DNA of 32,000 bases from Candidatus Saccharibacteria bacterium oral taxon 488 (lineage in GTDB: Bacteria > Patescibacteriota > Saccharimonadia > Saccharimonadales > Saccharimonadaceae), in the NCBI GenBank assembly GCA_010202845.1, contig CP047921.1, forward strand, positions 210,001 through 242,000. The letters run 5' to 3'. Within the stretch, counting starts at the first letter, position 1; every line of letters starts with the position of its first letter. The notes beneath the pieces are model-generated. The model did not search any database. It was not told the DNA's origin and saw nothing but the letters and a program-made list of their open reading frames with translations. The position numbers were made by a program, and so were the translations under genes. This document shows positions 3,011-14,531 of this stretch, piece by piece.

Positions 3011-4300
3011 ATGAGGAGAATCGACATCATTAAGCGGGCGGGGCGGAATCTTCGCCAGTCAAAGGGTCGGACAATTTTGACATCGCTGGCGATTTCGGTC
3101 GGGGCGTTTACGATTGGCTTGGCGCTGATGGCTGGCGAGGGTGGCCGTTTGTATACCAATAGCATAGTCGATGCGGCTGGTGACAAGAAAGTGATTATGG
3201 TTGGTAAAAAAGTTGAATCCGAAAAGAAGGATCAATTACCAGAATATGGCAATTCGGCAGAAGAAGCTGACAAAAATAAAGCATCGGCGGCGCGCAGCAA
3301 ATATGTGCTCAACGACAAGGACTTGGAAAAAATCCGACAAACGCCGCATGTAAAAACGGTAACACCAGCATATTCAACTGATGGCGTGGCCTATGCCAAG
3401 AGCTCGGCGAATGGTAAGAAATTTGCGCTGACTGTGGCTGTTAAAATGGACAGTACTCGGGCAGAATTGGCGGCAGGGTCACTGGAAGGTTTCATGCCAA
3501 AGCCGGGTGAGATTATCATCCCGGAGGCTTATGTCAAGCAACTGGGCTTCAAGGACGCGCAGTCGGCAATTGGTCAGACGATAACCTTGGGTGTGCGTAG
3601 CGCAGCGCGGGGCGGCAATGTCGCCAAAGAGGTGTCGTTCAAGATTGCGGCGGTGGACAAAAAATCAGACACCATTTTGTTTTATGAACCAATGCTGAGA
3701 ATTTCGACGGCTGATGCTAAAGCTATTTACGAATTCAGCCATAATAAGAGTCAGCCACATCAGTATTCAACGGCGATTGCTTTGGTGGATGACGAGAAAA
3801 ATGTTGATGCTGCTAAAGATGTGATTGGCAAAGACTATAACGCGTACTCAATTCAGGATATTCGGAAGGCGCTACTAACGATGGTTAATGTAGCGCAGGT
3901 GGCACTGGCAGGATTCGGCGGCTTGGCGCTGCTCGCCAGTGTATTCGGGATTATTAACACTATGTACATTTCGGTACTGGAGCGAACTAGCCAAATTGGC
4001 TTGATGAAGGCGTTGGGGATGCGCGGCCGCGATATTGGTAAATTATTCCGCTACGAGGCGGCATGGGTTGGTTTGCTGGGTGGTTTGATTGGCGTCGGAC
4101 TGGCAAGTTTGGTGACGCTGCTGAATCCAGTAATTACCAGTGCCTTAAAATTAGGCGTTGGCACGAATCTTCTAGTAATTAATCCGCTGCAAATCGGACT
4201 GTTGGTAATCGGACTGGTGGTGATGGCAATAATTTCTGGCTGGTTGCCAAGCCGCAAAGCAACAAAATTAGACCCAATTGAGGCGTTAAGGACGGAATAG
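3011..4300 (+). CDS. ABC transporter permease, MacB/FtsX-like (large extracytoplasmic domain between TM1 and TM2, C-terminal FtsX-type 3-TM bundle)
   Basis: The N-terminus RNLRQSKGRTILTSLAISVGAFTIGLAL is typical of MacB-type permeases. A soluble domain of about 270 aa follows, then the C-terminal TMs with GLMKALGMRGRDIGKLF and PSRKATKLDPIEALR. SD AAGGAG lies 6 nt upstream. Confidence 0.9.
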   Translation: MRRIDIIKRAGRNLRQSKGRTILTSLAISVGAFTIGLALMAGEGGRLYTNSIVDAAGDKKVIMVGKKVESEKKDQLPEYGNSAEEADKNKASAARSKYVLNDKDLEKIRQTPHVKTVTPAYSTDGVAYAKSSANGKKFALTVAVKMDSTRAELAAGSLEGFMPKPGEIIIPEAYVKQLGFKDAQSAIGQTITLGVRSAARGGNVAKEVSFKIAAVDKKSDTILFYEPMLRISTADAKAIYEFSHNKSQPHQYSTAIALVDDEKNVDAAKDVIGKDYNAYSIQDIRKALLTMVNVAQVALAGFGGLALLASVFGIINTMYISVLERTSQIGLMKALGMRGRDIGKLFRYEAAWVGLLGGLIGVGLASLVTLLNPVITSALKLGVGTNLLVINPLQIGLLVIGLVVMAIISGWLPSRKATKLDPIEALRTE

Positions 4301-6703: not shown

Positions 6704-7546
6704 GTGGCGTGGTGGCAAGCGATCATCCTCGGTATTGTTGAAGGCGTGACAGAGTTTCTGCCGGTTTCTTCGACGGGACATTTGACGATCGTCGAGAAGT
6801 TGATGGGGATGAGAATTGATGATTCGAGTCTGACGGCGTTCACGGCAGTAATTCAGGTCGGCGCGATCTTGGCAGCGATTATCTATTTCTGGAGCGATAT
6901 CTGGCGGGTGCTAAGCGCGTGGTGGCGCGGTCTGTGGTGGAAGCGGGCGCGACGACAGTTTGATTATGTGTATGGCTGGGCGATTATCATCGGTTCGGTG
7001 CCGATCGCAGTGATTGGACTACTGTTTAAGGATCAGGTCGAGACGGTGCTGCGTAGTTTGTGGTTTGTGGCGGTGGCGTTGATCGGCTGGAGCCTGGTGA
7101 TGTGGTGGGCTGATAAGCGTTCAGAAAAGGCCAGTCACCGCAGCGAGCAGCAAACGACGTGGCGAGATACGCTGGCGATTGGTGTGGGGCAGTGCCTGGC
7201 CTTGATACCGGGTATCAGTCGGTCGGGAGCAACGATCTCGGTGGGGCTGCTGCGGGGATTTGACCGAGTGACGGTGACGAAGTTGAGCTTTTTCCTCGGT
7301 ATCCCGGCGCTGGTGGCGGCTGGGCTGCTGGAGATGCTGACCGCCTCAAAGCACATTGCCGGCGGTGTCGGCTGGACAGCGACGGGGCTTGCGACAATTG
7401 TGTCGTTTGTGGTCGGCTACCTTGCGATATCGTGGCTGCTTAAGTTTGTGGCGCGGAATGACTTCTCGTTATTTATTTGGTATCGAGTCGGGCTGGGCGG
7501 CCTGATCATTGTTTTGCTGATGAGCGGCGCGATCAGTGCGGTTTAG
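6704..7546 (+). CDS. uppP: Undecaprenyl-diphosphate phosphatase (BacA/UppP)
   Basis: Hallmark motifs EGVTEFLPVSSTGHL and PGISRSGATI in an 8-TM profile. GTG start. Confidence 0.95.
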   Translation: MAWWQAIILGIVEGVTEFLPVSSTGHLTIVEKLMGMRIDDSSLTAFTAVIQVGAILAAIIYFWSDIWRVLSAWWRGLWWKRARRQFDYVYGWAIIIGSVPIAVIGLLFKDQVETVLRSLWFVAVALIGWSLVMWWADKRSEKASHRSEQQTTWRDTLAIGVGQCLALIPGISRSGATISVGLLRGFDRVTVTKLSFFLGIPALVAAGLLEMLTASKHIAGGVGWTATGLATIVSFVVGYLAISWLLKFVARNDFSLFIWYRVGLGGLIIVLLMSGAISAV

Positions 7547-7556
7547 TTGTCGTTAA

Positions 7557-7729
7557 AAGCGTATGGTCACTGGGGCGAGTGTGACGATTTTAGGCAAATC
7601 TGGTTCGGGCAAGTCGACGCTGACGCACACCATCTCGGGACTGGGGATAAGCCTGAGCAAGGCGAAGTGTTGGTTGATGGCGAGGGAATGACTGGCCCGT
7701 ACTACTTAATTGTGGCTGACCTGTCGTAA
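7557..7729 (+). pseudogene. Decayed fragment of a MacB/LolD-type ABC ATPase gene (Walker A region only, frameshifted and truncated)
   Basis: Frame 3 reads [29 protein letters not shown] (7557-7643), compared with [25 protein letters not shown] in the intact gene at 4311. Two extra G at 7644-7645 move the continuation DKPEQGEVLVDGE into frame 2. The first ~25 codons and everything after residue ~70 are missing. Confidence 0.8.
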
Positions 7730-7775
7730 TTACCCGCGATTTTTGATAAAAATTATGGCTTTTAGAATGTGCTCA

Positions 7776-7784
7776 TGCTATAAT
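7776..7784 (+). promoter_or_regulatory. extended -10 box TGCTATAAT upstream of the collagen-like gene
   Basis: This is a consensus extended -10. Here it is 48 nt from the ATG, so this gene is predicted to have a leader. A second TATAAT at 7822-7827 lies 5 nt from the ATG. Confidence 0.5.
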
Positions 7785-7832
7785 CACGGTAAATAGGCGT
7801 ATAGCAAGATCAAATAGGGGATATAATACAAT

Positions 7833-8060
7833 ATGAACGAGCGCTCAGACAAGACATATGCGAGTCGTAAACTGGTAATATGTTTGTTTATCGTCACGAT
7901 ACTAATCATTCTACTGCTGTGGTGGTGGCCATGGGGCGGCGGCAATCGCTTTTACAAGGGGGTTCGTCCAGATCAGATTAGCTTACGCCAGAGCAATGGC
8001 AAGGTGCAGTGGCAGTTTATGGACGGCGACTGGCAGGATATTGTCTCTCTTTCTGAATAG
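7833..8060 (+). CDS. N-terminal membrane-anchor fragment of the collagen-like protein, ending at an in-frame TAG
   Basis: TM helix LVICLFIVTILIILLLWWW, then GKVQWQFMDGDWQDIVSLSE, a paralogue of the internal linker of the downstream ORF. It is in the same frame as 8148-9806. Confidence 0.7.
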   Translation: MNERSDKTYASRKLVICLFIVTILIILLLWWWPWGGGNRFYKGVRPDQISLRQSNGKVQWQFMDGDWQDIVSLSE

Positions 8061-8063
8061 CGA

Positions 8064-8510
8064 GGTGATAAGGGCGAGAAAGGCGACAAGGGTGACAAAG
8101 GTGACACTGGTGAGGCTGGAGCTGCTGGTAAAGACGGTAAAAACGGTGTGAACACAGGGCAGCGTGGAGCCAATGGCCGTGATGGGGCGAATGGTAAAAA
8201 CGGTGCGACCGGGCCAAAGGGCGATACCGGCGCGACCGGTGCTCAGGGTCCAGCTGGTCCACGGGGCCAAAAGGGTGACAAGGGTGAGAAGGGTGATGCC
8301 AACGGTATCGTCGGTCCGGCTGGCCCACAGGGTCCCAAAGGTGACACCGGCCAGCAAGGACAAAAAGGTGACAAAGGCGATGCCGGTGCTAAAGGCGAAA
8401 AGGGAGACGCTGGTGCTAAAGGTGAAAAGGGTGAAAAAGGTGACAAAGGTGACACTGGTGCAGTGGGCGCCCAAGGCCAAAAGGGCGATGCCGGTAATGA
8501 TGGACGAGAG
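8064..8510 (+). repeat. Collagen run 1: 49 Gly-X-Y triplets with two single-residue interruptions
   Basis: Counted by hand from the translation: 10 triplets upstream of the called start, then 16, then 23. Confidence 0.9.
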
Positions 8511-9806
8511 ATTGAGCTACAGAAAACTGCACTATATATACAGTGGCGCTACAGAGGCGATGCCACTTGGCATAACCTCATCGCATTGTCTGATCTAAAG
8601 GGCCCGAAGGGTGACAAAGGTGATACCGGTCCACAGGGTGCAACGGGTGCCCAGGGCGCACAAGGTGCTCAGGGGCCTGCCGGTGCCCAAGGCCAAAAGG
8701 GTGAAACTGGCCCTGCCGGCCCGCAAGGCCCAGCTGGTCCCCAAGGCCAAAAAGGCGAGAAAGGTGAAAAAGGTAATGATGGCCCACAAGGTCCTGCAGG
8801 TCCTCAGGGAGCCAAAGGTGATACCGGTCCAATCGGTCCCGCCGGCCCGCAAGGACTCAAAGGCGCTAAAGGTGATACTGGAGCGACAGGCGCTCAAGGT
8901 CAAAAAGGCGACAAGGGCGACACCGGCCCAGTAGGTCCTCAGGGCCTGCCCGGCCCCCAGGGTATACCAGGTGTTAAGGGGGATAAAGGTGACACTGGTC
9001 CAGCGGGGCCACAGGGTCTTCAGGGTGCTAAGGGTGACAAAGGCGAGCCAGGGGCTAAGGGTGAAACTGGCCCTGCCGGCCCACAAGGGGCCAAGGGAGA
9101 TGCCGGTGCACCTGGAGCTAAAGGTCCGAAGGGCGACGCTGGTCCCCAAGGACAAAAAGGTGATAAAGGTGAAAAGGGTGAAGCTGGTGCAAATGCAACA
9201 GTCAATGTGACAAATAGTACTCAGCCATGTTCGACCAAACTCAACGTTACGGGCAATGGTACACCAAATATTGGACTGACGTTTACCGGATCAAATATTC
9301 CGGCTGGTGGGTCAATTGGTCAGGTACTGATGAAAAAATCGGCGGCAGATTGTGATGTTGCGTGGAGAAGTTTGCCGCAAGAAACGATGTTTGCTGGCTC
9401 GATCGGTGTCGGTAATGGTAACATCACGGCGGTGAATATTAATGCTGACACTTATACAGCCATTCCGATGACAACGATCACCACGAATACCGGCGGTGGC
9501 ACCTGGGATCCAGTGAATCACACGTATACCATTCCAAGCGACGGTGTATATTTCATCCGTTCCAGTATTCGTACCGTTGACAACTCGCCGATGCGTAACA
9601 TTTACCAAATTGTTAATGATGTGAACGGTGATCGTCCAGAGGGCACGTGGTCGTCTAATCAAGCCGGTGTTCGTCGTTCGACACTGCCGTATTCACGGAT
9701 GATGCGGGCCACGGCTGGCACCAAACTAAAGTTGATCGTCGTATCAGACCTCCAGAGTGTGCAACTCAGCGACGCAAGCCTGACAATCACCAAGCTTTCA
9801 AACTAG
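8148..9806 (+). CDS. Collagen-like triple-helix repeat protein with a globular C-terminal domain; the coding signal actually begins at 8061, directly after the TAG
   Basis: Long Gly-X-Y runs ([19 protein letters not shown]...). The GTG at 8148 is only the first start-like codon, and ten further GXY triplets lie between 8064 and 8147. No signal peptide is present in this piece. The C-terminal ~200 aa are non-repetitive and look beta-rich. Confidence 0.85.
8601..9194 (+). repeat. Collagen run 2: 66 uninterrupted Gly-X-Y triplets
   Basis: Counted by hand, from GPK at 8601 to GAN ending at 9194. Confidence 0.9.
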
Positions 9807-9836
9807 TGAAGTTAGCGAGATAAATTATCGTATATC

Positions 9837-9845
9837 TGCTACAAT
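9837..9845 (+). promoter_or_regulatory. extended -10 box TGCTACAAT, 6 nt before the serS ATG (leaderless)
   Basis: TGCTACAAT-gatacc-ATG(9852), with no SD. Confidence 0.65.
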
Positions 9846-9851
9846 GATACC

Positions 9852-11147
9852 ATGTTAGATATTCGCTTTATTCGAGATAACGCCGAGGCAGTGCAGACTG
9901 CGGCGAAACACAAGGGGTGTGACGTGTCTATTGCGACATTGTTGCAATTAGACGACGAGCGTCGTGAGGCGCAGCGGCAGGTTGATGAGTTGCGCCAGCA
10001 GCGTAATGAGATTGCTGCGCAGATGAAGGGAGGCAAGCCTGAGCCGGGTCTGATTGAGCAGGGCAAGGCGATCAAGGCTAAGCTGAGTGGGCTCGAGACT
10101 CGGCTGAGCGAGATCGAGGAACGATACACGGCACTACTAAAGCAGGTTCCTAATATGCCGCACGCCGATGTACCAGTTGGTCTGAGTGAGGATGAAAACG
10201 TTGAAGTAAAGGTCGTCGGTGATATTCCAACCTTTGATTTTGCGCCGAAAAATCACTACGAAATCGCCGAGGCAAAAGGCTGGCTCGATAAAGAGCGGGC
10301 CGCCAAGGTTGCTGGTGCTCGTTTTGCTTATATCATGGGGGATTTGGTGTTGTTGCAACAGGCGATTATCCAGTTTGTGATCACATCTCTCACGAACCCA
10401 GCGGTGATCAAAGAGATCGCCGAAAAGGCTGGCCTTGATGTCAATACAAAACCATTCACCCCAGTGCTGCCGCCACTGATGATCCGCACCGAACCGTATG
10501 ATCAGATGGATCGCCTCCAGCCGAGTGACGATCGCTACAAGATCGAGGGCGAGGAATTATGGCTCCAGGGAAGTGCTGAGCATGTGCTCGGCAGCATGCA
10601 CGCGGGTGAGATCTTTGACGCCAAGCAGTTACCGCTACGATACTTGGGTTTTGCGACTAGCTTTCGAAAAGAGGCGGGGACCTATGGCAAGGATATGGAG
10701 GGGCTGATCCGGATGCATCAGTTCGACAAGCTCGAGATGGAGAGTTTCACCGAGGCTAAGGACAGCTATAGCGAGCATCTCCTATTTATTGCCATCCAAG
10801 AGTGGTTGTTGGCCCAGCTGAAGTTGCCATACCACGTGCTGATGAAATGTACGGCCGATATTGGTAAGCCAAATGCGCGCGGTGTTGACATGGAAGTCTG
10901 GCTACCGGGTCAGGACAAGTACCGCGAGACGCATACCGCTGACTACATGACTGATTATCAGGCACGCCGCTTGATGACGCGGGTGCGTACGGATAACGGG
11001 GTTGAATTGATCCACACGAATGACGCGACGGCCTTTGCGCTGGGGCGCTGTATGGTGGCGATTATTGAGAATTACCAGACCGCCGAGGGTGATGTAGTGG
11101 TGCCAGAAGTACTTCGTCCATATATGAATGGCCGCGAGATGATATAA
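9852..11147 (+). CDS. serS: Seryl-tRNA synthetase
   Basis: N-terminal coiled-coil arm, then the class II motifs FRKEAGTYGKDMEGLIRMHQFDKLE and GRCMVAIIENYQ. Confidence 0.97.
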   Translation: MLDIRFIRDNAEAVQTAAKHKGCDVSIATLLQLDDERREAQRQVDELRQQRNEIAAQMKGGKPEPGLIEQGKAIKAKLSGLETRLSEIEERYTALLKQVPNMPHADVPVGLSEDENVEVKVVGDIPTFDFAPKNHYEIAEAKGWLDKERAAKVAGARFAYIMGDLVLLQQAIIQFVITSLTNPAVIKEIAEKAGLDVNTKPFTPVLPPLMIRTEPYDQMDRLQPSDDRYKIEGEELWLQGSAEHVLGSMHAGEIFDAKQLPLRYLGFATSFRKEAGTYGKDMEGLIRMHQFDKLEMESFTEAKDSYSEHLLFIAIQEWLLAQLKLPYHVLMKCTADIGKPNARGVDMEVWLPGQDKYRETHTADYMTDYQARRLMTRVRTDNGVELIHTNDATAFALGRCMVAIIENYQTAEGDVVVPEVLRPYMNGREMI

Positions 11148-11165
11148 TGGAGTCTAGGAGGGTAT

Positions 11166-11408
11166 ATGGCACTGACGAACGATGACAAGCAATGGATCAA
11201 GGGCGCGATCGCTGATGGTGTGGTTGAAGGCAGACTACAGGCACTAACGAACGACATTAAAGAGATATACGATGTTATTTACGGTAAGCCGAACAAATCA
11301 TTTATGAGCGCCAGCTTTGCCAAAATGTCGTCGAAAGAAAAGCTGCTCGTGATTAACGAAGAATTACTAAAAATGGCGAAGGACGCGGGTGTTGTTTTGC
11401 CGCGCTAG
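11166..11408 (+). CDS. Hypothetical small protein (80 aa)
   Basis: Strong AGGAGG just upstream of the ATG. It is tightly packed between serS and hpf. I recognise no family. Confidence 0.6.
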   Translation: MALTNDDKQWIKGAIADGVVEGRLQALTNDIKEIYDVIYGKPNKSFMSASFAKMSSKEKLLVINEELLKMAKDAGVVLPR

Positions 11409-11429
11409 CACGTGATAAGAGGAGGAACC

Positions 11430-11804
11430 ATGATCAAAGATATTACCATTACTGGCGTCAAATACGAATTGACAGACACCACAAAGAAATACGTCGAGCG
11501 CAAAATTGGCGCGTTGGGCAAGTACTTGCCGCGGCATGCCCGCAAGAGCGCTACCGCTGATGTAAAGATCAAGCAGATTGATCATCCTGGCGGCAACAAG
11601 TACGAGGTTGAGGTGATTATCAATGTGCCAGACAAGAAAATCACCGCTAAAGATTCGACAATGAACGTGCTAGCAGCAGTGGATATCGTTGAGGCGAAGC
11701 TGAATGGGCAGCTACGTAAGTATAAGGATGATGTGTTGGCGCACGTTGGCAGCAGCCGCAGCGTACTGGCACGGTTCAAGCGCGGTTTCCAGCGCGAGCA
11801 GTAG
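11430..11804 (+). CDS. hpf: Ribosome hibernation promoting factor / RaiA family (short form)
   Basis: The sequence ITITGVKYELTDTTKKYVERKIGALGKYL...EVEVIINVPDKKITAKDSTMNVLAAVDIVEAKLNGQLRKYKD matches the S30AE/HPF fold pattern. The ATG at 11430 is preceded by AGGAGG, whereas the ORF-track GTG at 11412 has no RBS. Confidence 0.85.
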   Translation: MIKDITITGVKYELTDTTKKYVERKIGALGKYLPRHARKSATADVKIKQIDHPGGNKYEVEVIINVPDKKITAKDSTMNVLAAVDIVEAKLNGQLRKYKDDVLAHVGSSRSVLARFKRGFQREQ

Positions 11805-11834
11805 AAGGGGTTTAAATCAACCCCTTTAATTTTC
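11805..11834 (+). terminator. Rho-independent terminator after hpf
   Basis: Perfect 8-bp stem AAGGGGTT / AACCCCTT with loop taaatc, followed by taattttc. Confidence 0.8.
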
Positions 11835-11847
11835 TAGCCCTGCACGG

Positions 11848-11853
11848 TATAAT
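11848..11853 (+). promoter_or_regulatory. -10 box TATAAT of secA, with a leader of about 45 nt
   Basis: TATAAT at 11848-11853, a weak -35 TTTAAT 17 nt upstream, and GAGGGAG 10 nt before the ATG at 11901. Confidence 0.45.
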
Positions 11854-11900
11854 TGTATACAGTTTTTGAAAATGCCTGAAAGTGAGGGAGTTTTGAGTTT

Positions 11901-14531
11901 ATGGCAATGACACAACAAAAGGCGCTGAGTAAGATTTTTGGCGATCCGCAGAAGAAAATTTTGAAACGGCTGCGTAAGCAAGTTGACGTAATTAACGGTC
12001 TGTCCGAAAAATATGAAACAATGTCGGACAAGGAGTTGCGGGCGCAGACAGAGGCGCTGAAAAAGCGTCTGACGAAGAAAAATGTAACACTGGATACGAT
12101 TTTGCCGGATGCCTTTGCGGTGGTGCGCGAGGCAGCCAAGCGTGTCATTGGCGAGCGTCCGTACGATGTCCAGCTGATCGGCGGCATGGTTCTTCATGAG
12201 GGTAATGTGGCTGAGATGAAGACCGGCGAAGGTAAAACCTTGGTGGCGACGCTGCCGACCTATCTGAACGCATTGGAGGAAAAGGGCGTTCATGTGGTGA
12301 CCGTCAATGATTATCTGGCGCAGCGCGACGCCGGCTGGATGGGCCAGGTGTATGACTTTTTGGGCTTGACAACTGGCGTGATCATCAACGAAGCGTCGTT
12401 TATCTATGACAAAGAGTATGATAATGAGCATCACGACGATCCGCGCATGCGCAAGCTCCGCCCGGTCACTCGTAAGGAAGCCTACGCGGCCGACATTACA
12501 TATGGCACCAACAACGAGTTTGGTTTTGACTATTTGCGCGACAACATGGTTAATGACGTTGATTTGCTCAGGCAGCGCGAGCTGAACTTTGCTATCGTTG
12601 ACGAGGTGGACTCCATTCTGATCGACGAAGCGCGTACGCCGCTGATCATCTCGGCGCCAGCAGCGGAAAACCCGGACAACTACTACACTTTCGCCAAAGT
12701 TGCCAGTAAATTAGTGCCAGATGACTATGTTTTGGACGAAAAGCGCCGCAGCGTGGCCTTGACCGACGAGGGCGTGGAAAAAGTCCAAAAACTGCTGGGA
12801 ATAAAAAATTTGTACACACCAGACCACGTGCGCAGCGTTTACCACATGGACCAAGCTCTGCGAGCACAAACATTGTTCAAGCGCGACAAAGACTACGTGG
12901 TAACTAATGACGGCGAGGTGATCATCGTCGATGAGCACACCGGTCGTTTGATGCAAGGACGCCGCTACAACGAAGGCTTGCACCAGGCAATTGAGGCGAA
13001 AGAAGGCGTGCCAGTGCTGGAAGAAAGCATGACGCTGGCGACCATTTCGTTCCAGAATTATTTCCGTTTGTATAATAAACTTTCCGGTATGACTGGTACG
13101 GCATTTACCGAGGCTGAAGAGTTTCAGCAAATTTATTCACTGGACGTCATCCAGATTCCACCGAACAAGCCAGTGATTCGCGATGACAAAGAAGACCTGA
13201 TTTTCAAGACCGAAAAAGGCAAGCTGAAGGCGGTGGCTGAAGCCATCAAAGATTATCACAAGCAAGGCCGGCCGGTATTGGTTGGTTCTGGCTCGATCGC
13301 CAAGAACGAGCAGATTGCCAAATATCTGGAAAAAGAAGGCATCAAGTTTGAGATTTTGAACGCTAAGAATAATGAGCGCGAGGCGGCTATCATCGAGAAG
13401 GCTGGTGAAAAGGGTGCGATTACGCTAGCGACAAACATCGCCGGGCGTGGTACCGACATTAAACTTGGCAAGGGCGTTAAGGAATTGGGCGGTCTGGTGG
13501 TGATCGGTTCGGAGCGCCACGAATCACGGCGTATCGACAATCAGTTGCGCGGTCGTGGTGGTCGTCAGGGTGACCCGGGTGAGACGCAGTTCTATGTGTC
13601 GACCGAAGATGATTTGATGCGAATTTTCCAAGGCGAGCGAATTGCGGCGCTGATGGATCGGCTGGGCGTGGACGAAGATACGCCGATTCAAAACCGCGCT
13701 GTGTCAAAGACGTTGGAGGCAGCCCAGAAGCGTGTCGAAGGTTACAACTTTGATACGCGCAAAAATGTTGTTCAGTACGACAATGTGATTAATCGCCATC
13801 GCCGGGTGGTCTACACGATGCGCCGAAAAATCCTTGAAGGCGACAATATTCAGCCGGAAATTGAGCGGTTGTTGCGAGACAGAGTCAAAGAGCTAGTGAC
13901 GCTACCGACAAAAAACAACCCGAAGTTTATCGAGGAATTTACCTCGGCCTTTCCGGTCGATGAGGCGGCCGTGCGCAAGGTTGGCCGCGAGAAAAAAGAC
14001 CGTCCACGCCTCCAAAAAGCTCTGAAACTAGCACACCAGGCCTACCGGGAAAAAGATGAAGAAATCGGTACTGAAGAGTTGCGCGGTGTGGAGCGCGAGG
14101 TGTATATGGCGGTGCTCGACACCCTGTGGATGCAGCACCTAGAGAATATGCAACACCTACGCGAAGGGATCCACTGGCGCAGCGTTGGCCAGCGCGATCC
14201 ATTGGTAGAATACCGGGCGGAGTCACAAAAATTGTTCACCAGCCTCCAGGAAAATCTGCGTAACGAAGTTCTGAACACAATTTTTCATATTCATAAATCT
14301 GACGCAGTGATTCGCCAGTCACAGGATGATGAGTATGATACCGAGCTAACGCGCCTAGCCGAAAGCGCAGTTGAGCGTGGCGTTAATGAAGTTGGTACGG
14401 GCGAGGAAAATCGTGACGGTGACTTTTCGGTGAAAAAGGGTAAATCTAACGCCGAGTCGAACCGCGCTAAAAACCAAGCACGCAAGAAGAAAAAAGCGCA
14501 GCGCCAAAATCGCAAAAAGAATCGCAAATAA
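11901..14531 (+). CDS. secA: Preprotein translocase ATPase SecA
   Basis: MKTGEGKTLVATLP (Walker A), DEVDSILIDEARTPLIIS and TNIAGRGTDIKLG. The C-terminus is a polybasic tail without the Cys/His zinc motif. Confidence 0.98.
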   Translation: MAMTQQKALSKIFGDPQKKILKRLRKQVDVINGLSEKYETMSDKELRAQTEALKKRLTKKNVTLDTILPDAFAVVREAAKRVIGERPYDVQLIGGMVLHEGNVAEMKTGEGKTLVATLPTYLNALEEKGVHVVTVNDYLAQRDAGWMGQVYDFLGLTTGVIINEASFIYDKEYDNEHHDDPRMRKLRPVTRKEAYAADITYGTNNEFGFDYLRDNMVNDVDLLRQRELNFAIVDEVDSILIDEARTPLIISAPAAENPDNYYTFAKVASKLVPDDYVLDEKRRSVALTDEGVEKVQKLLGIKNLYTPDHVRSVYHMDQALRAQTLFKRDKDYVVTNDGEVIIVDEHTGRLMQGRRYNEGLHQAIEAKEGVPVLEESMTLATISFQNYFRLYNKLSGMTGTAFTEAEEFQQIYSLDVIQIPPNKPVIRDDKEDLIFKTEKGKLKAVAEAIKDYHKQGRPVLVGSGSIAKNEQIAKYLEKEGIKFEILNAKNNEREAAIIEKAGEKGAITLATNIAGRGTDIKLGKGVKELGGLVVIGSERHESRRIDNQLRGRGGRQGDPGETQFYVSTEDDLMRIFQGERIAALMDRLGVDEDTPIQNRAVSKTLEAAQKRVEGYNFDTRKNVVQYDNVINRHRRVVYTMRRKILEGDNIQPEIERLLRDRVKELVTLPTKNNPKFIEEFTSAFPVDEAAVRKVGREKKDRPRLQKALKLAHQAYREKDEEIGTEELRGVEREVYMAVLDTLWMQHLENMQHLREGIHWRSVGQRDPLVEYRAESQKLFTSLQENLRNEVLNTIFHIHKSDAVIRQSQDDEYDTELTRLAESAVERGVNEVGTGEENRDGDFSVKKGKSNAESNRAKNQARKKKKAQRQNRKKNRK

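What the first reader, a model, noticed from the sequence alone, without database searches (positions are those of the whole stretch)
7833..9806. The collagen-like surface protein gene is cut by one in-frame TAG between its membrane anchor and its collagen stalk
ORFs 7833-8060 and 8148-9806 are in the same reading frame and are separated only by the TAG at 8058-8060.

The 87 nt between that TAG and the GTG chosen by the ORF track are not spacer. They read [29 protein letters not shown] and run straight into the downstream Gly-X-Y run, so coding periodicity continues right up to the stop.

The upstream piece carries the only export or anchor signal (LVICLFIVTILIILLLWWW). The downstream piece has none.

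The residues before the stop (VQWQFMDGDWQDIVSLSE*RGDKG) are a paralogue of the internal linker [28 protein letters not shown]. In that linker the position aligned with the stop is Leu, and TAG is one substitution away from TTG.

TAG is the ordinary stop of at least eight other genes here (ending at 4300, 5009, 6635, 7546, 9806, 11408, 11804 and 15845), so codon reassignment is unlikely.

The remaining options are:
- a recent nonsense mutation (pseudogene);
- population heterogeneity or on/off switching of a surface fibre;
- low-level readthrough;
- a consensus or assembly error in repetitive DNA.
Basis: seen in the sequence. Interest (0 to 1): 0.75.

Follow-up and report, generated by a model that had tools for sequence, protein, structure and literature searches.

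The report
Strain-specific nonsense mutation in surface-fibre gene
One gene for a membrane-anchored, collagen-like surface fibre of an oral Saccharibacteria (TM7) bacterium is cut short in this genome by a single T-to-A change (TTG Leu to TAG stop); all 74 relatives examined keep Leu, so this is an ordinary recent knock-out (or a base-call error), not a new mechanism.

Summary
ORFs 7833-8060 and 8148-9806 are one reading frame broken only by the TAG at 8058-8060, and Gly-X-Y coding resumes directly after it.

A 99%-identical metagenome contig (L002) reads TTG (Leu) at that codon and encodes an intact 657-aa protein. That protein is identical to the window's conceptual product at every other residue; the DNA differs by 5 synonymous changes plus the T-to-A at 8059.

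All 74 other alleles recovered carry Leu at this codon (TTG 56, CTT 16, CTC 2). They come from isolate genomes, MAGs and metagenome contigs of oral Saccharibacteria. Almost all are single ORFs of about 370-690 aa with the N-terminal anchor.

TAG ends 15 of 30 genes in the window, so the code is not reassigned. The site has no slippery repeat or invertible element, so it is not a switch.

The protein has a signal-anchor, about 115 collagen triplets and a C1q/BclA-like head (AlphaFold pLDDT 91; Foldseek hits to BclA, C1q and EDA-A1).

The window matches a closed genome of a co-cultured oral taxon 488 (HMT-488) strain. Best reading: a recent, strain-specific null allele. A consensus error cannot be excluded without reads. 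Interest is low to moderate.

The parts
7776..7784 (+). TGCTATAAT, an extended -10-like promoter element 48 nt upstream of the ATG. A GGGGA Shine-Dalgarno-like element lies at 7816-7820.
   Evidence: Read directly from the sequence. The consensus scan found no -35/-10 pair on the + strand, so this is an inference. The upstream region 7311-8058 is 100% identical to the intact-gene contig L002.
7833..8057 (+). Codons 1-75. A basic cytoplasmic tail (MNERSDKTYASRK), a signal-anchor/TM helix (residues 14-32, nt 7872-7928), and the first copy of the conserved motif (SLRQSNGKVQWQFMDGDWQDIVSLSE). This is all that the truncated allele can make.
   Evidence: Compared with L047, L054 and L057 there are 6 synonymous and 0 non-synonymous differences. 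The motif and anchor are conserved in about 70 orthologues.
8058..8060 (+). Premature TAG at codon 76. The A at 8059 is the derived base; the ancestral codon is TTG (Leu).
   Evidence: L002 has TTG. L001 reads GAG-TT before its contig ends. All 74 other alleles have Leu codons. L76 is an invariant column in alignment A1.
8061..8504 (+). First collagen-like segment: about 49 Gly-X-Y triplets in three runs (8064-8153, 8157-8300, 8304-8510). The GTG at 8148 is only the ORF-track start, not a real start.
   Evidence: Pfam Collagen E 3.1e-54; triplet regex. The GTG at 8148 is the first in-frame start codon after the TAG, and its upstream 20 nt (GTAAAGACGGTAAAAACGGT) contain no AGGAGG-like element.
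8505..8600 (+). Internal linker, the second copy of the motif ([32 protein letters not shown]).
   Evidence: LYIQWRY is invariant across orthologues. It matches phage tail PHROG 19976 at E 1.3e-8.
8601..9194 (+). Second collagen-like segment: 66 uninterrupted Gly-X-Y triplets.
   Evidence: In-frame 9-, 18- and 27-nt tandem repeats.
9195..9329 (+). Conserved neck ([24 protein letters not shown]...GQVL), upstream of the modelled head.
   Evidence: About 70% identical to the neck of Nanosynbacter orthologues whose heads differ.
9330..9803 (+). C-terminal head domain (158 aa) with a C1q/TNF-like jelly-roll fold (BclA_C-like).
   Evidence: AlphaFold2 with a 54-sequence MSA: pLDDT 91.4, pTM 0.85. 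Foldseek PDB hits: ExsFA 7r1m, BxpB 8d02, BclA C-terminal domain 1wck (E 1.2e-6, TM 0.62/0.70), C1q heads and EDA-A1. Pfam BclA_C E 1.1e-5, below the curated cut-off. pN/pS is about 0.07.
9804..9806 (+). Natural TAG stop of the gene.
   Evidence: All close orthologues have the same C-terminus...SLTITKLSN*.

Best explanation
Positions 7833-9806 are one gene for a type-II membrane-anchored, collagen-like surface fibre of an oral Saccharibacteria bacterium of the oral taxon 488 (HMT-488) group.

**Architecture.** The protein has a short basic cytoplasmic tail and a single signal-anchor helix. A roughly 30-aa conserved motif follows, then about 49 Gly-X-Y triplets, a second copy of the motif, 66 more triplets, a conserved neck, and a C1q/BclA-like head.

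**The lesion.** In the lineage of this sequenced strain a single T-to-A transversion at 8059 turned codon 76 from TTG (Leu) into TAG. Ribosomes therefore stop after 75 residues and release only the anchor plus the first motif.

**Consequence.** The stalk and head are not made. If translation re-initiated at the weak internal GTG at 8148, the product would lack any export signal. The strain therefore carries a recent null allele of the fibre, a pseudogene in the making. serS downstream is probably unaffected, because it appears to have its own promoter.

**Shown:** gene unity, the ancestral codon, conservation, the fold of the head, and normal use of TAG as a stop.
**Inferred:** membrane topology, trimeric fibre formation, loss of function, and that the A at 8059 is a real base rather than a consensus error.
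For: - **Closest relative is intact.** L002 (an independent metagenome assembly, 98.97% identical over 6,296 nt with no gaps) has TTG. It encodes an intact 657-aa protein identical to the window's at every other residue. Within the gene there are 5 synonymous differences plus the nonsense change.
- **A second strain agrees.** L001 (96.7% identical) reads GAG-TT at the junction.
- **All other alleles have Leu.** 41 close alleles (...SLSELRG) all use TTG. 33 more distant Saccharibacteria orthologues use TTG, CTT or CTC.
- **Orthologues are single ORFs.** They run about 370-690 aa and carry the same N-terminal anchor.
- **Both halves are under purifying selection.** N-terminal piece: 6 synonymous, 0 non-synonymous. 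Head: 18-19 synonymous, 4 non-synonymous, pN/pS about 0.07.
- **No other decay.** Promoter, ribosome-binding site and the whole upstream region are identical to L002, and there are no indels.
- **TAG is the commonest stop here**, ending 15 of 30 ORFs.
- **The site is not repetitive.** It lies in unique sequence 3 nt before the first repeat array, and there is no inverted repeat.
- **Likely source.** Two window proteins equal QHU93630.1 and QHU93626.1 of 'Candidatus Saccharibacteria bacterium oral taxon 488', on an 853,179-bp contig. The closed HMT-488 genomes of Murugkar et al. 2020 were PacBio/HGAP assemblies of passaged co-cultures (PMC7651992). From general knowledge, the residual errors of such assemblies are mostly indels, not substitutions.
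Against: - No reads are available, so a consensus base error at 8059, or a mixed A/T population, cannot be excluded.
- Attribution of the window to a particular strain rests on accession arithmetic only.
- Loss of function is inferred. Neither low-level near-cognate readthrough of UAG nor a genome-encoded suppressor tRNA was tested.
- Some of the 74 comparison alleles may be the same population assembled more than once.
Confidence: 0.76

Rival explanations
1. Base-call or consensus error. The real genome has TTG at 8058-8060 and the gene is intact.
For: Every other allele has Leu, and the closest relative differs in the protein only at this base. The site is 3 nt from repetitive collagen DNA, and a short-read contig (L001) breaks exactly there.
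Against: The change is a substitution in unique, non-homopolymeric sequence. The likely source is a closed PacBio/HGAP genome, whose residual errors are typically indels (general knowledge). Real substitutions between these strains, about 1%, outnumber expected consensus errors by orders of magnitude. Independent real-looking lesions exist in the same gene in other genomes.
Confidence: 0.12
2. Population heterogeneity or on/off switching. The culture holds both TTG and TAG alleles, and expression of the fibre is toggled.
For: Three independent lesions in this one gene: TAG here, TGA in TM7-008 (L017), and a 1-nt deletion in L049. This suggests recurrent loss. Surface fibres are common targets of variation.
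Against: There is no hypermutable element at the site. It is a transversion in unique sequence. All tandem repeats nearby have periods of 9, 18 or 27 nt, with one 11-nt near-duplication at 8539-8559, and none overlaps the stop codon. There is no inverted repeat for an invertible switch. A point nonsense mutation reverts only at the basal mutation rate. None of 41 close natural alleles carries TAG.
Confidence: 0.07
3. Functional readthrough. UAG at codon 76 is decoded at a useful frequency, by near-cognate decoding or a suppressor tRNA, so some full-length fibre is still made.
For: The downstream frame is perfectly intact. The base following the stop is C (TAG-C), which in E. coli is a relatively weak termination context (general knowledge).
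Against: TAG terminates half of the genes in the window, so efficient suppression would be harmful. No relative uses TAG here. There is no tRNA in the window. No readthrough-promoting structure was looked for or is known in this group.
Confidence: 0.03
4. Two genuine genes: a 75-aa membrane protein and a separately initiated collagen protein.
For: The ORF track lists two ORFs.
Against: No orthologue shows this arrangement. Every intact copy, more than 70 of them, is one ORF. The 87 nt before the GTG at 8148 code in register. There is no Shine-Dalgarno-like element before 8148, and the downstream part has no export signal.
Confidence: 0.01

Closest known systems
Bacillus anthracis/cereus exosporium glycoprotein BclA (collagen-like stalk plus C1q-like C-terminal domain, Pfam BclA_C PF18573; PDB 1wck)
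   Same: Same order of parts: the attachment end is N-terminal, a Gly-X-Y stalk of strain-variable length follows, and the distal head is a C1q/TNF-like jelly roll. The Foldseek hit to 1wck has E 1.2e-6 and TM 0.62/0.70. Pfam BclA_C scores E 1.1e-5.
   Different: There is no exosporium-targeting N-terminus; a transmembrane signal-anchor takes its place. The organism is a non-sporulating, ultrasmall epibiont. The Pfam score (25.7 bits) is below the family cut-off of 38 bits. There are two collagen segments separated by a conserved motif.
Eukaryotic type-II membrane collagen/TNF-C1q proteins, e.g. ectodysplasin EDA-A1 (PDB 1rj7), and C1q/C1QL heads
   Same: Same topology (N-terminal signal-anchor, collagen stalk, C-terminal TNF/C1q-fold trimeric head). 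Foldseek hits to EDA-A1, C1QL1/3 and C1QTNF5 at E about 1e-6 to 1e-5.
   Different: Sequence identity is only 10-18%, so this is an analogy of architecture. No orthology is claimed.
Phage collagen-like tail fibres with C1q-like knobs
   Same: PHROG tail-fibre families match the collagen part, the linker motif (phrog_19976, E 1.3e-8) and the head (phrog_35360, E 6.1e-8). Foldseek hits cyanophage A4 and A-1(L) and phage phi812 fibre or spike domains.
   Different: The gene lies in a conserved chromosomal neighbourhood (uppP - gene - serS - secA) in all relatives, with no phage genes around it. It also carries a membrane anchor.
Streptococcal Scl1/Scl2 and Legionella Lcl collagen-like adhesins
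   Same: Surface-exposed bacterial collagen-like proteins. NCBIfam hits come through the Gly-X-Y region.
   Different: All scores are far below the curated cut-offs (229 vs 500, 193 vs 325, 180 vs 400). There is no LPXTG motif. The orientation is opposite: Scl proteins have an N-terminal head and a C-terminal wall anchor.
Ordinary nonsense-mutation pseudogenes in reduced or host-associated bacterial genomes
   Same: A single in-frame stop in an otherwise intact, conserved gene, while close relatives carry the sense codon.
   Different: Nothing distinguishes it from this class except that the allele is very young, with no secondary decay.

Membership tests
Bacterial collagen-like protein (Pfam Collagen PF01391) | Long uninterrupted Gly-X-Y repeats scoring above the Pfam gathering threshold | tested here: met
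   E 3.1e-54, 181 bits against a cut-off of 27.2, 7 stretches. About 115 triplets by regex.
BclA-type (collagen stalk plus BclA_C head) | C-terminal domain belongs to Pfam BclA_C (PF18573) by sequence | tested here: inconclusive
   25.7 bits, E 1.1e-5, below the 38-bit cut-off. Precomputed PF18573 hits exist for the near-identical fragments P0001 and P0002.
BclA-type (collagen stalk plus BclA_C head) | C-terminal domain has the C1q/TNF-like jelly-roll fold | tested here: met
   Model pLDDT 91.4. Foldseek hits to BclA 1wck/2r6q/3tyj, ExsFA, BxpB and C1q heads, probability 1.00, TM 0.55-0.76.
BclA-type (collagen stalk plus BclA_C head) | N-terminal exosporium-targeting sequence; incorporation into a spore exosporium | tested here: not met
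   The N-terminus is a basic tail followed by a 19-residue hydrophobic helix. The organism is a Saccharibacteria epibiont.
LPXTG-anchored collagen-like adhesins Scl1/Scl2 | C-terminal LPXTG sortase signal and an NCBIfam score above cut-off | tested here: not met
   No LPXTG-like motif. NF038329 scores 192.5 against 325; NF038330 scores 180 against 400.
Legionella Lcl adhesin | NCBIfam equivalog score of at least 500 | tested here: not met
   228.9 bits, from the collagen region only.
Nonsense-mutation pseudogene / null allele | An in-frame stop interrupts an ORF that is continuous in orthologues, which carry a sense codon at the aligned position | tested here: met
   74 of 74 other alleles have Leu. 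L002 is otherwise protein-identical.
Nonsense-mutation pseudogene / null allele | The stop codon is a true terminator in this organism (no reassignment) | tested here: met
   TAG ends 15 of 30 long ORFs in the window, including uppP. This was tested in the window only.
Nonsense-mutation pseudogene / null allele | The variant base is real in the organism's DNA (read support) | not testable with these tools
   No reads are available. The window's own record could not be retrieved.
Phase-variable contingency locus | A hypermutable element at the switch point: a homopolymer or short tandem repeat causing frameshifts, or an invertible segment | tested here: not met
   The lesion is a T-to-A substitution in unique sequence. 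Neighbouring repeats have periods of 9, 18 or 27 nt, apart from one 11-nt near-duplication at 8539-8559, and none overlaps the stop. No inverted repeats in 7500-8400.
Programmed UAG recoding (suppressor tRNA, pyrrolysine, or TAG-reassigned code) | A dedicated tRNA(CUA) or recoding machinery, and TAG at conserved sense positions in several genes | tested here: inconclusive
   No tRNA in the window. TAG is the main stop. No relative has TAG at this site. The rest of the genome was not available.

The most novel reading that the evidence does not exclude
The fibre gene is repeatedly knocked out when oral Saccharibacteria are propagated in binary laboratory co-culture. It carries a TAG in this oral taxon 488 (HMT-488) strain and an independent TGG-to-TGA change in the cultured HMT-352 strain TM7-008. 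Only one of about 66 alleles from metagenome contigs and MAGs is disrupted.

On this reading the roughly 100-nm collagen/C1q fibre is needed in the mouth, for example for host choice, biofilm contacts or immune or phage interactions. In vitro it would be dispensable or costly. These strains would then be natural knock-outs for finding its function.
Probability: 0.15. Interest if true: 0.5.

Novelty: new member of a known kind. Interest (0 to 1): 0.25.

Why it matters
For annotation, 7833-9806 should be recorded as one disrupted gene. It should not be listed as a 75-aa hypothetical protein plus a 552-aa 'collagen-like protein' starting at a spurious GTG.

For biology, the useful by-product is the gene itself. 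It encodes a conserved, syntenic, membrane-anchored collagen/C1q-head fibre that is present across oral Saccharibacteria. A full-text search for 'Saccharibacteria' with 'collagen-like' found no relevant paper.

The strain sequenced here, and TM7-008, appear to be natural null mutants. They sit next to close relatives with intact copies (for example FS13P, CP047919). That offers a cheap comparison for testing whether the fibre contributes to attachment to Actinomycetota hosts. The stop codon itself reveals no new mechanism.

Tried and rejected
- **Homologue search with the N-terminal 81 aa** found no candidates because of the word index. Orthologues were reached instead through the C-terminal domain, a pattern scan of genomes and exact look-ups of neighbouring proteins.
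- **Exact look-ups** of the window's UppP and HPF-like proteins, and of the 75-aa stub, did not retrieve the source record. The '75-aa' hit L001 is only a contig that ends 2 nt into the codon, not a second TAG allele.
- **First structure prediction**, with a 4-sequence alignment, was unusable at pLDDT 51. It was replaced by a 54-sequence alignment.
- **Sequence search of the head against PDB** gave nothing meaningful.
- **Promoter/terminator scan** found nothing on the + strand. The TGnTATAAT elements were read by eye only.
- **Literature search** for Saccharibacteria with collagen-like returned one irrelevant paper.
- **Codon reassignment** rejected.
- **Phase-variation switch** rejected.
- **Phage origin of the locus** rejected on conserved chromosomal synteny.
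- **Enrichment of knock-outs in cultured strains** was considered. It is not significant once the window, which was selected for its stop, is left out: 1 of 7 complete or isolate genomes against 1 of about 66 metagenomic alleles. By my own hypergeometric estimate, not a tool result, the chance of at least one of the two lesions falling among the isolates is about 0.18.
Full report
**1. The observation**

Translating 7833-9806 in one frame gives 658 codons with a single internal stop, TAG at 8058-8060 (codon 76).

The ORF tool splits this into 7833-8060 (75 aa) and 8148-9806 (552 aa, GTG start). The 87 nt in between encode [29 protein letters not shown], and collagen triplets are detected from 8064 onward.

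The only strongly hydrophobic segment of the whole conceptual protein is LVICLFIVTILIILLLWWW (residues 14-32, mean hydropathy 2.9). It is preceded by the basic stretch MNERSDKTYASRK. The next best 19-mer scores 1.1.

The motif before the stop is a paralogue of the internal linker (tblastn E 7.5e-12), and the stop aligns with Leu of ...ALSDLKG. TAG ends 15 of the 30 long ORFs in the window.

**2. One gene, and the ancestral codon was TTG**

An exact look-up of the neighbouring SerRS returned an independent metagenome contig, L002 (ENA ERZ505037). It is colinear with window 7311-13606 at 98.97% identity with no gaps.

In L002 the gene is an uninterrupted 657-aa ORF. The codon is TTG...TCTGAATTGCGAGGT..., against ...TCTGAATAGCGAGGT... 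in the window. Within the gene the two sequences differ at six positions, five synonymous plus the T/A at 8059. The upstream 750 nt, including promoter and ribosome-binding site, are identical.

A second strain, L001 (96.7% identical), ends two bases into the codon and reads GAG-TT.

Further alleles came from four searches:
- a pattern scan of one genome per GTDB species;
- exact look-ups of the neighbouring 80-aa protein;
- exact look-ups of a UppP variant;
- a DNA-pattern scan of metagenome contigs with N at the variable base.

Together these gave 74 other alleles that cover the codon, and every one encodes Leu:

| Set | Alleles | Codon |
|---|---|---|
| Close, with the same ...SLSELRG context | 41 | all TTG |
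| More distant Saccharibacteria (Nanosynbacter and relatives) | 33 | TTG 15, CTT 16, CTC 2 |

Some of these may be the same population assembled twice. L76 is an invariant alignment column.

Apart from the exceptions in section 6, every complete copy is one ORF of about 370-690 aa that begins with the same basic-tail-plus-anchor N-terminus. None has a separate start or export signal on the collagen part.

Both halves are under purifying selection. Compared with L047, L054 and L057 (about 94% nucleotide identity), the N-terminal 75 codons show 6 synonymous and 0 non-synonymous differences. The head shows 18-19 synonymous and 4 non-synonymous differences, giving pN/pS of about 0.07.

**3. What the protein is**

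Pfam finds collagen repeats (E 3.1e-54) and a sub-threshold BclA_C match on the C-terminus (E 1.1e-5; 25.7 bits against a cut-off of 38).

A profile search found about 250-aa 'C1q domain-containing' proteins of Chryseobacterium and other Flavobacteriales with 35-45% identical heads. With 54 of these sequences as the alignment, AlphaFold2 models residues 500-657 at pLDDT 91.4 as an all-beta jelly roll.

Foldseek against the PDB returns the following at E about 1e-7 to 1e-5 and TM about 0.55-0.76:
- ExsFA, BxpB and the BclA C-terminal domain (1wck);
- C1q, C1QL and C1QTNF5 heads;
- EDA-A1;
- phage fibre knobs.

PHROG tail-fibre families match the linker motif and the head. There is no LPXTG motif. 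Scl and Lcl NCBIfam scores are far below their cut-offs.

The architecture is therefore: signal-anchor, motif, about 49 triplets, motif, 66 triplets, neck, C1q-like head.

By inference, the positive-inside rule puts the N-terminus in the cytoplasm and the head outside. The head fold implies a trimer. At the textbook rise of 0.286 nm per residue of collagen helix, about 345 residues give a stalk of roughly 100 nm, which is long for cells a few hundred nanometres across.

It works like BclA or like type-II membrane collagens such as EDA. It is not a member of the BclA exosporium family, because the N-terminal targeting feature is not met.

**4. Where the window comes from**

The neighbourhood is chromosomal and conserved in all relatives: FtsX/ABC, PadR, PspC, uppP, the fibre gene, serS, hpf, secA.

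Two window proteins are identical to QHU93630.1 and QHU93626.1 of 'Candidatus Saccharibacteria bacterium oral taxon 488', on a contig of 853,179 bp. CP047919.1 (831,234 bp; strain FS13P) belongs to the same accession series.

Murugkar et al. 2020 (PMC7651992) describe these genomes as closed PacBio/HGAP assemblies of strains passaged in co-culture with Arachnia propionica. By accession arithmetic the window is probably CP047921 (FS05P-B) or CP047920 (FS07P). This is an inference, not a tool result.

**5. What the stop means**

- **Codon reassignment** is excluded by normal TAG usage.
- **A programmed switch** is unlikely. The lesion is a transversion in unique sequence, 3 nt upstream of the first repeat array. 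The nearby arrays have periods of 9, 18 or 27 nt, apart from one 11-nt near-duplication at 8539-8559, and none overlaps the stop. There is no inverted repeat.
- **Restart** is unlikely to matter. The first in-frame start after the stop is the GTG at 8148, with no Shine-Dalgarno-like element before it. Any restart product would lack an export signal.
- **Polarity on serS** is probably absent. serS follows a TGCTACAAT element that ends 6 nt before its ATG, so it appears to have its own, possibly leaderless, promoter (inference).

The allele is very young. It is younger than the roughly 1% divergence from L002, and nothing else in the gene has decayed.

The best explanation is a strain-specific null allele (0.76). 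A consensus error (0.12) remains possible without reads. It is disfavoured because it is a substitution in non-repetitive sequence in a long-read consensus, and because real substitutions between these strains are far more frequent than consensus errors. A mixed population (0.07), useful readthrough (0.03) and two genes (0.01) follow.

**6. Other lesions in the same gene**

- The complete genome of the cultured HMT-352 strain TM7-008 (L017) has TGG-to-TGA at the conserved Trp ten codons upstream.
- Metagenome contig L049 has a 1-nt deletion in the neck, relative to the 99.9%-identical intact L052.

That makes three independent lesions in about 75 alleles, two of them in laboratory strains. This hints at relaxed or negative selection in culture. 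Once the window, which was chosen for its stop, is left out, the enrichment is not significant.

**7. Verdict**

The mechanism is mundane: a recent nonsense mutation, or less likely a base error, in a conserved collagen/C1q-head surface-fibre gene of an oral Saccharibacteria strain. The interest lies in the gene family and the natural knock-outs, not in the stop codon.

Noticed in passing
window 7547-7729 (relic core 7563-7684): The 60-aa 'ORF' between uppP and the fibre gene is not a gene. It is the frameshifted relic of an ABC-transporter ATPase: the Walker A sequence [10 protein letters not shown] plus DKPEQGEVLVDGE, matching residues 47-86 of the 300-aa ATPase of L007 (E 1e-11). The rest of the ATPase and a 452-aa MacB/FtsX permease (about 2.3 kb) are deleted here. 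They are intact in L007, L069-71, L073-76 and L078; L009 has an insert of the same size at this position, and L048 at least retains the 452-aa permease. L072 and L077 have a 101-aa stub.
   Followed up: yes
window 12758-13397 (inside secA): 56 of the 65 differences between the window and the 99%-identical contig L002 are packed into 640 nt of secA, and all 56 are synonymous. This looks like a recombination tract or mosaic allele, or a chimeric metagenome contig.
   Followed up: partly
L017 5070-5072 (Candidatus Nanosynbacter sp. TM7-008, NZ_CP157587.1): The orthologous fibre gene of this cultured HMT-352 strain carries an independent premature stop. TGA replaces the conserved TGG (Trp) of ...DGNWQKIVSLEDLK, ten codons upstream of the window's TAG position.
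   Followed up: partly
L049 about 2585 (ENA ERZ27320129 k141_74268): The orthologue is split into 484 + 192 aa by a 1-nt deletion (GGCAATGGTACA to GGCAAT-GTACA) in the neck, relative to the 99.9%-identical intact L052. It could be a real frameshift allele or an assembly error.
   Followed up: partly
window 9837-9854: serS (ATG at 9852) is preceded by TGCTACAAT, which ends only 6 nt before the start codon. This suggests a leaderless mRNA. The fibre gene has a similar TGCTATAAT at 7776-7784.
   Followed up: no
window 8063-9182 and orthologues L004-L010, L046-L078: The collagen region is built of in-frame 9-, 18- and 27-nt tandem repeats. Gene length varies from 629 to 690 aa among strains that are 90-99% identical, so stalk length is polymorphic. 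Short-read contigs such as L001 break at the start of the repeats.
   Followed up: partly
window 9330-9803; proteins P0003, P0038-P0119: The head domain of this Saccharibacteria protein is 35-45% identical to the C-terminal half of about 250-aa lipoprotein-like 'C1q domain-containing' proteins of Chryseobacterium, Epilithonimonas, Halpernia and Kaistella (Flavobacteriales). Nanosynbacter orthologues share the anchor, motifs and neck but carry a different head. This suggests head-domain swapping or horizontal transfer.
   Followed up: partly
L014 5016-5807 (uncultured Eubacteriales MAG): The roughly 30-aa motif (x-IQWRY-x-G-x-x-W-x-x-L-x-x-L-x-x-L-x-G) that precedes each collagen segment also occurs three times in a collagen-like protein of a Firmicutes MAG, and it matches phage tail PHROG 19976. 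It may be a widespread collagen-flanking, possibly trimer-registering, module.
   Followed up: no
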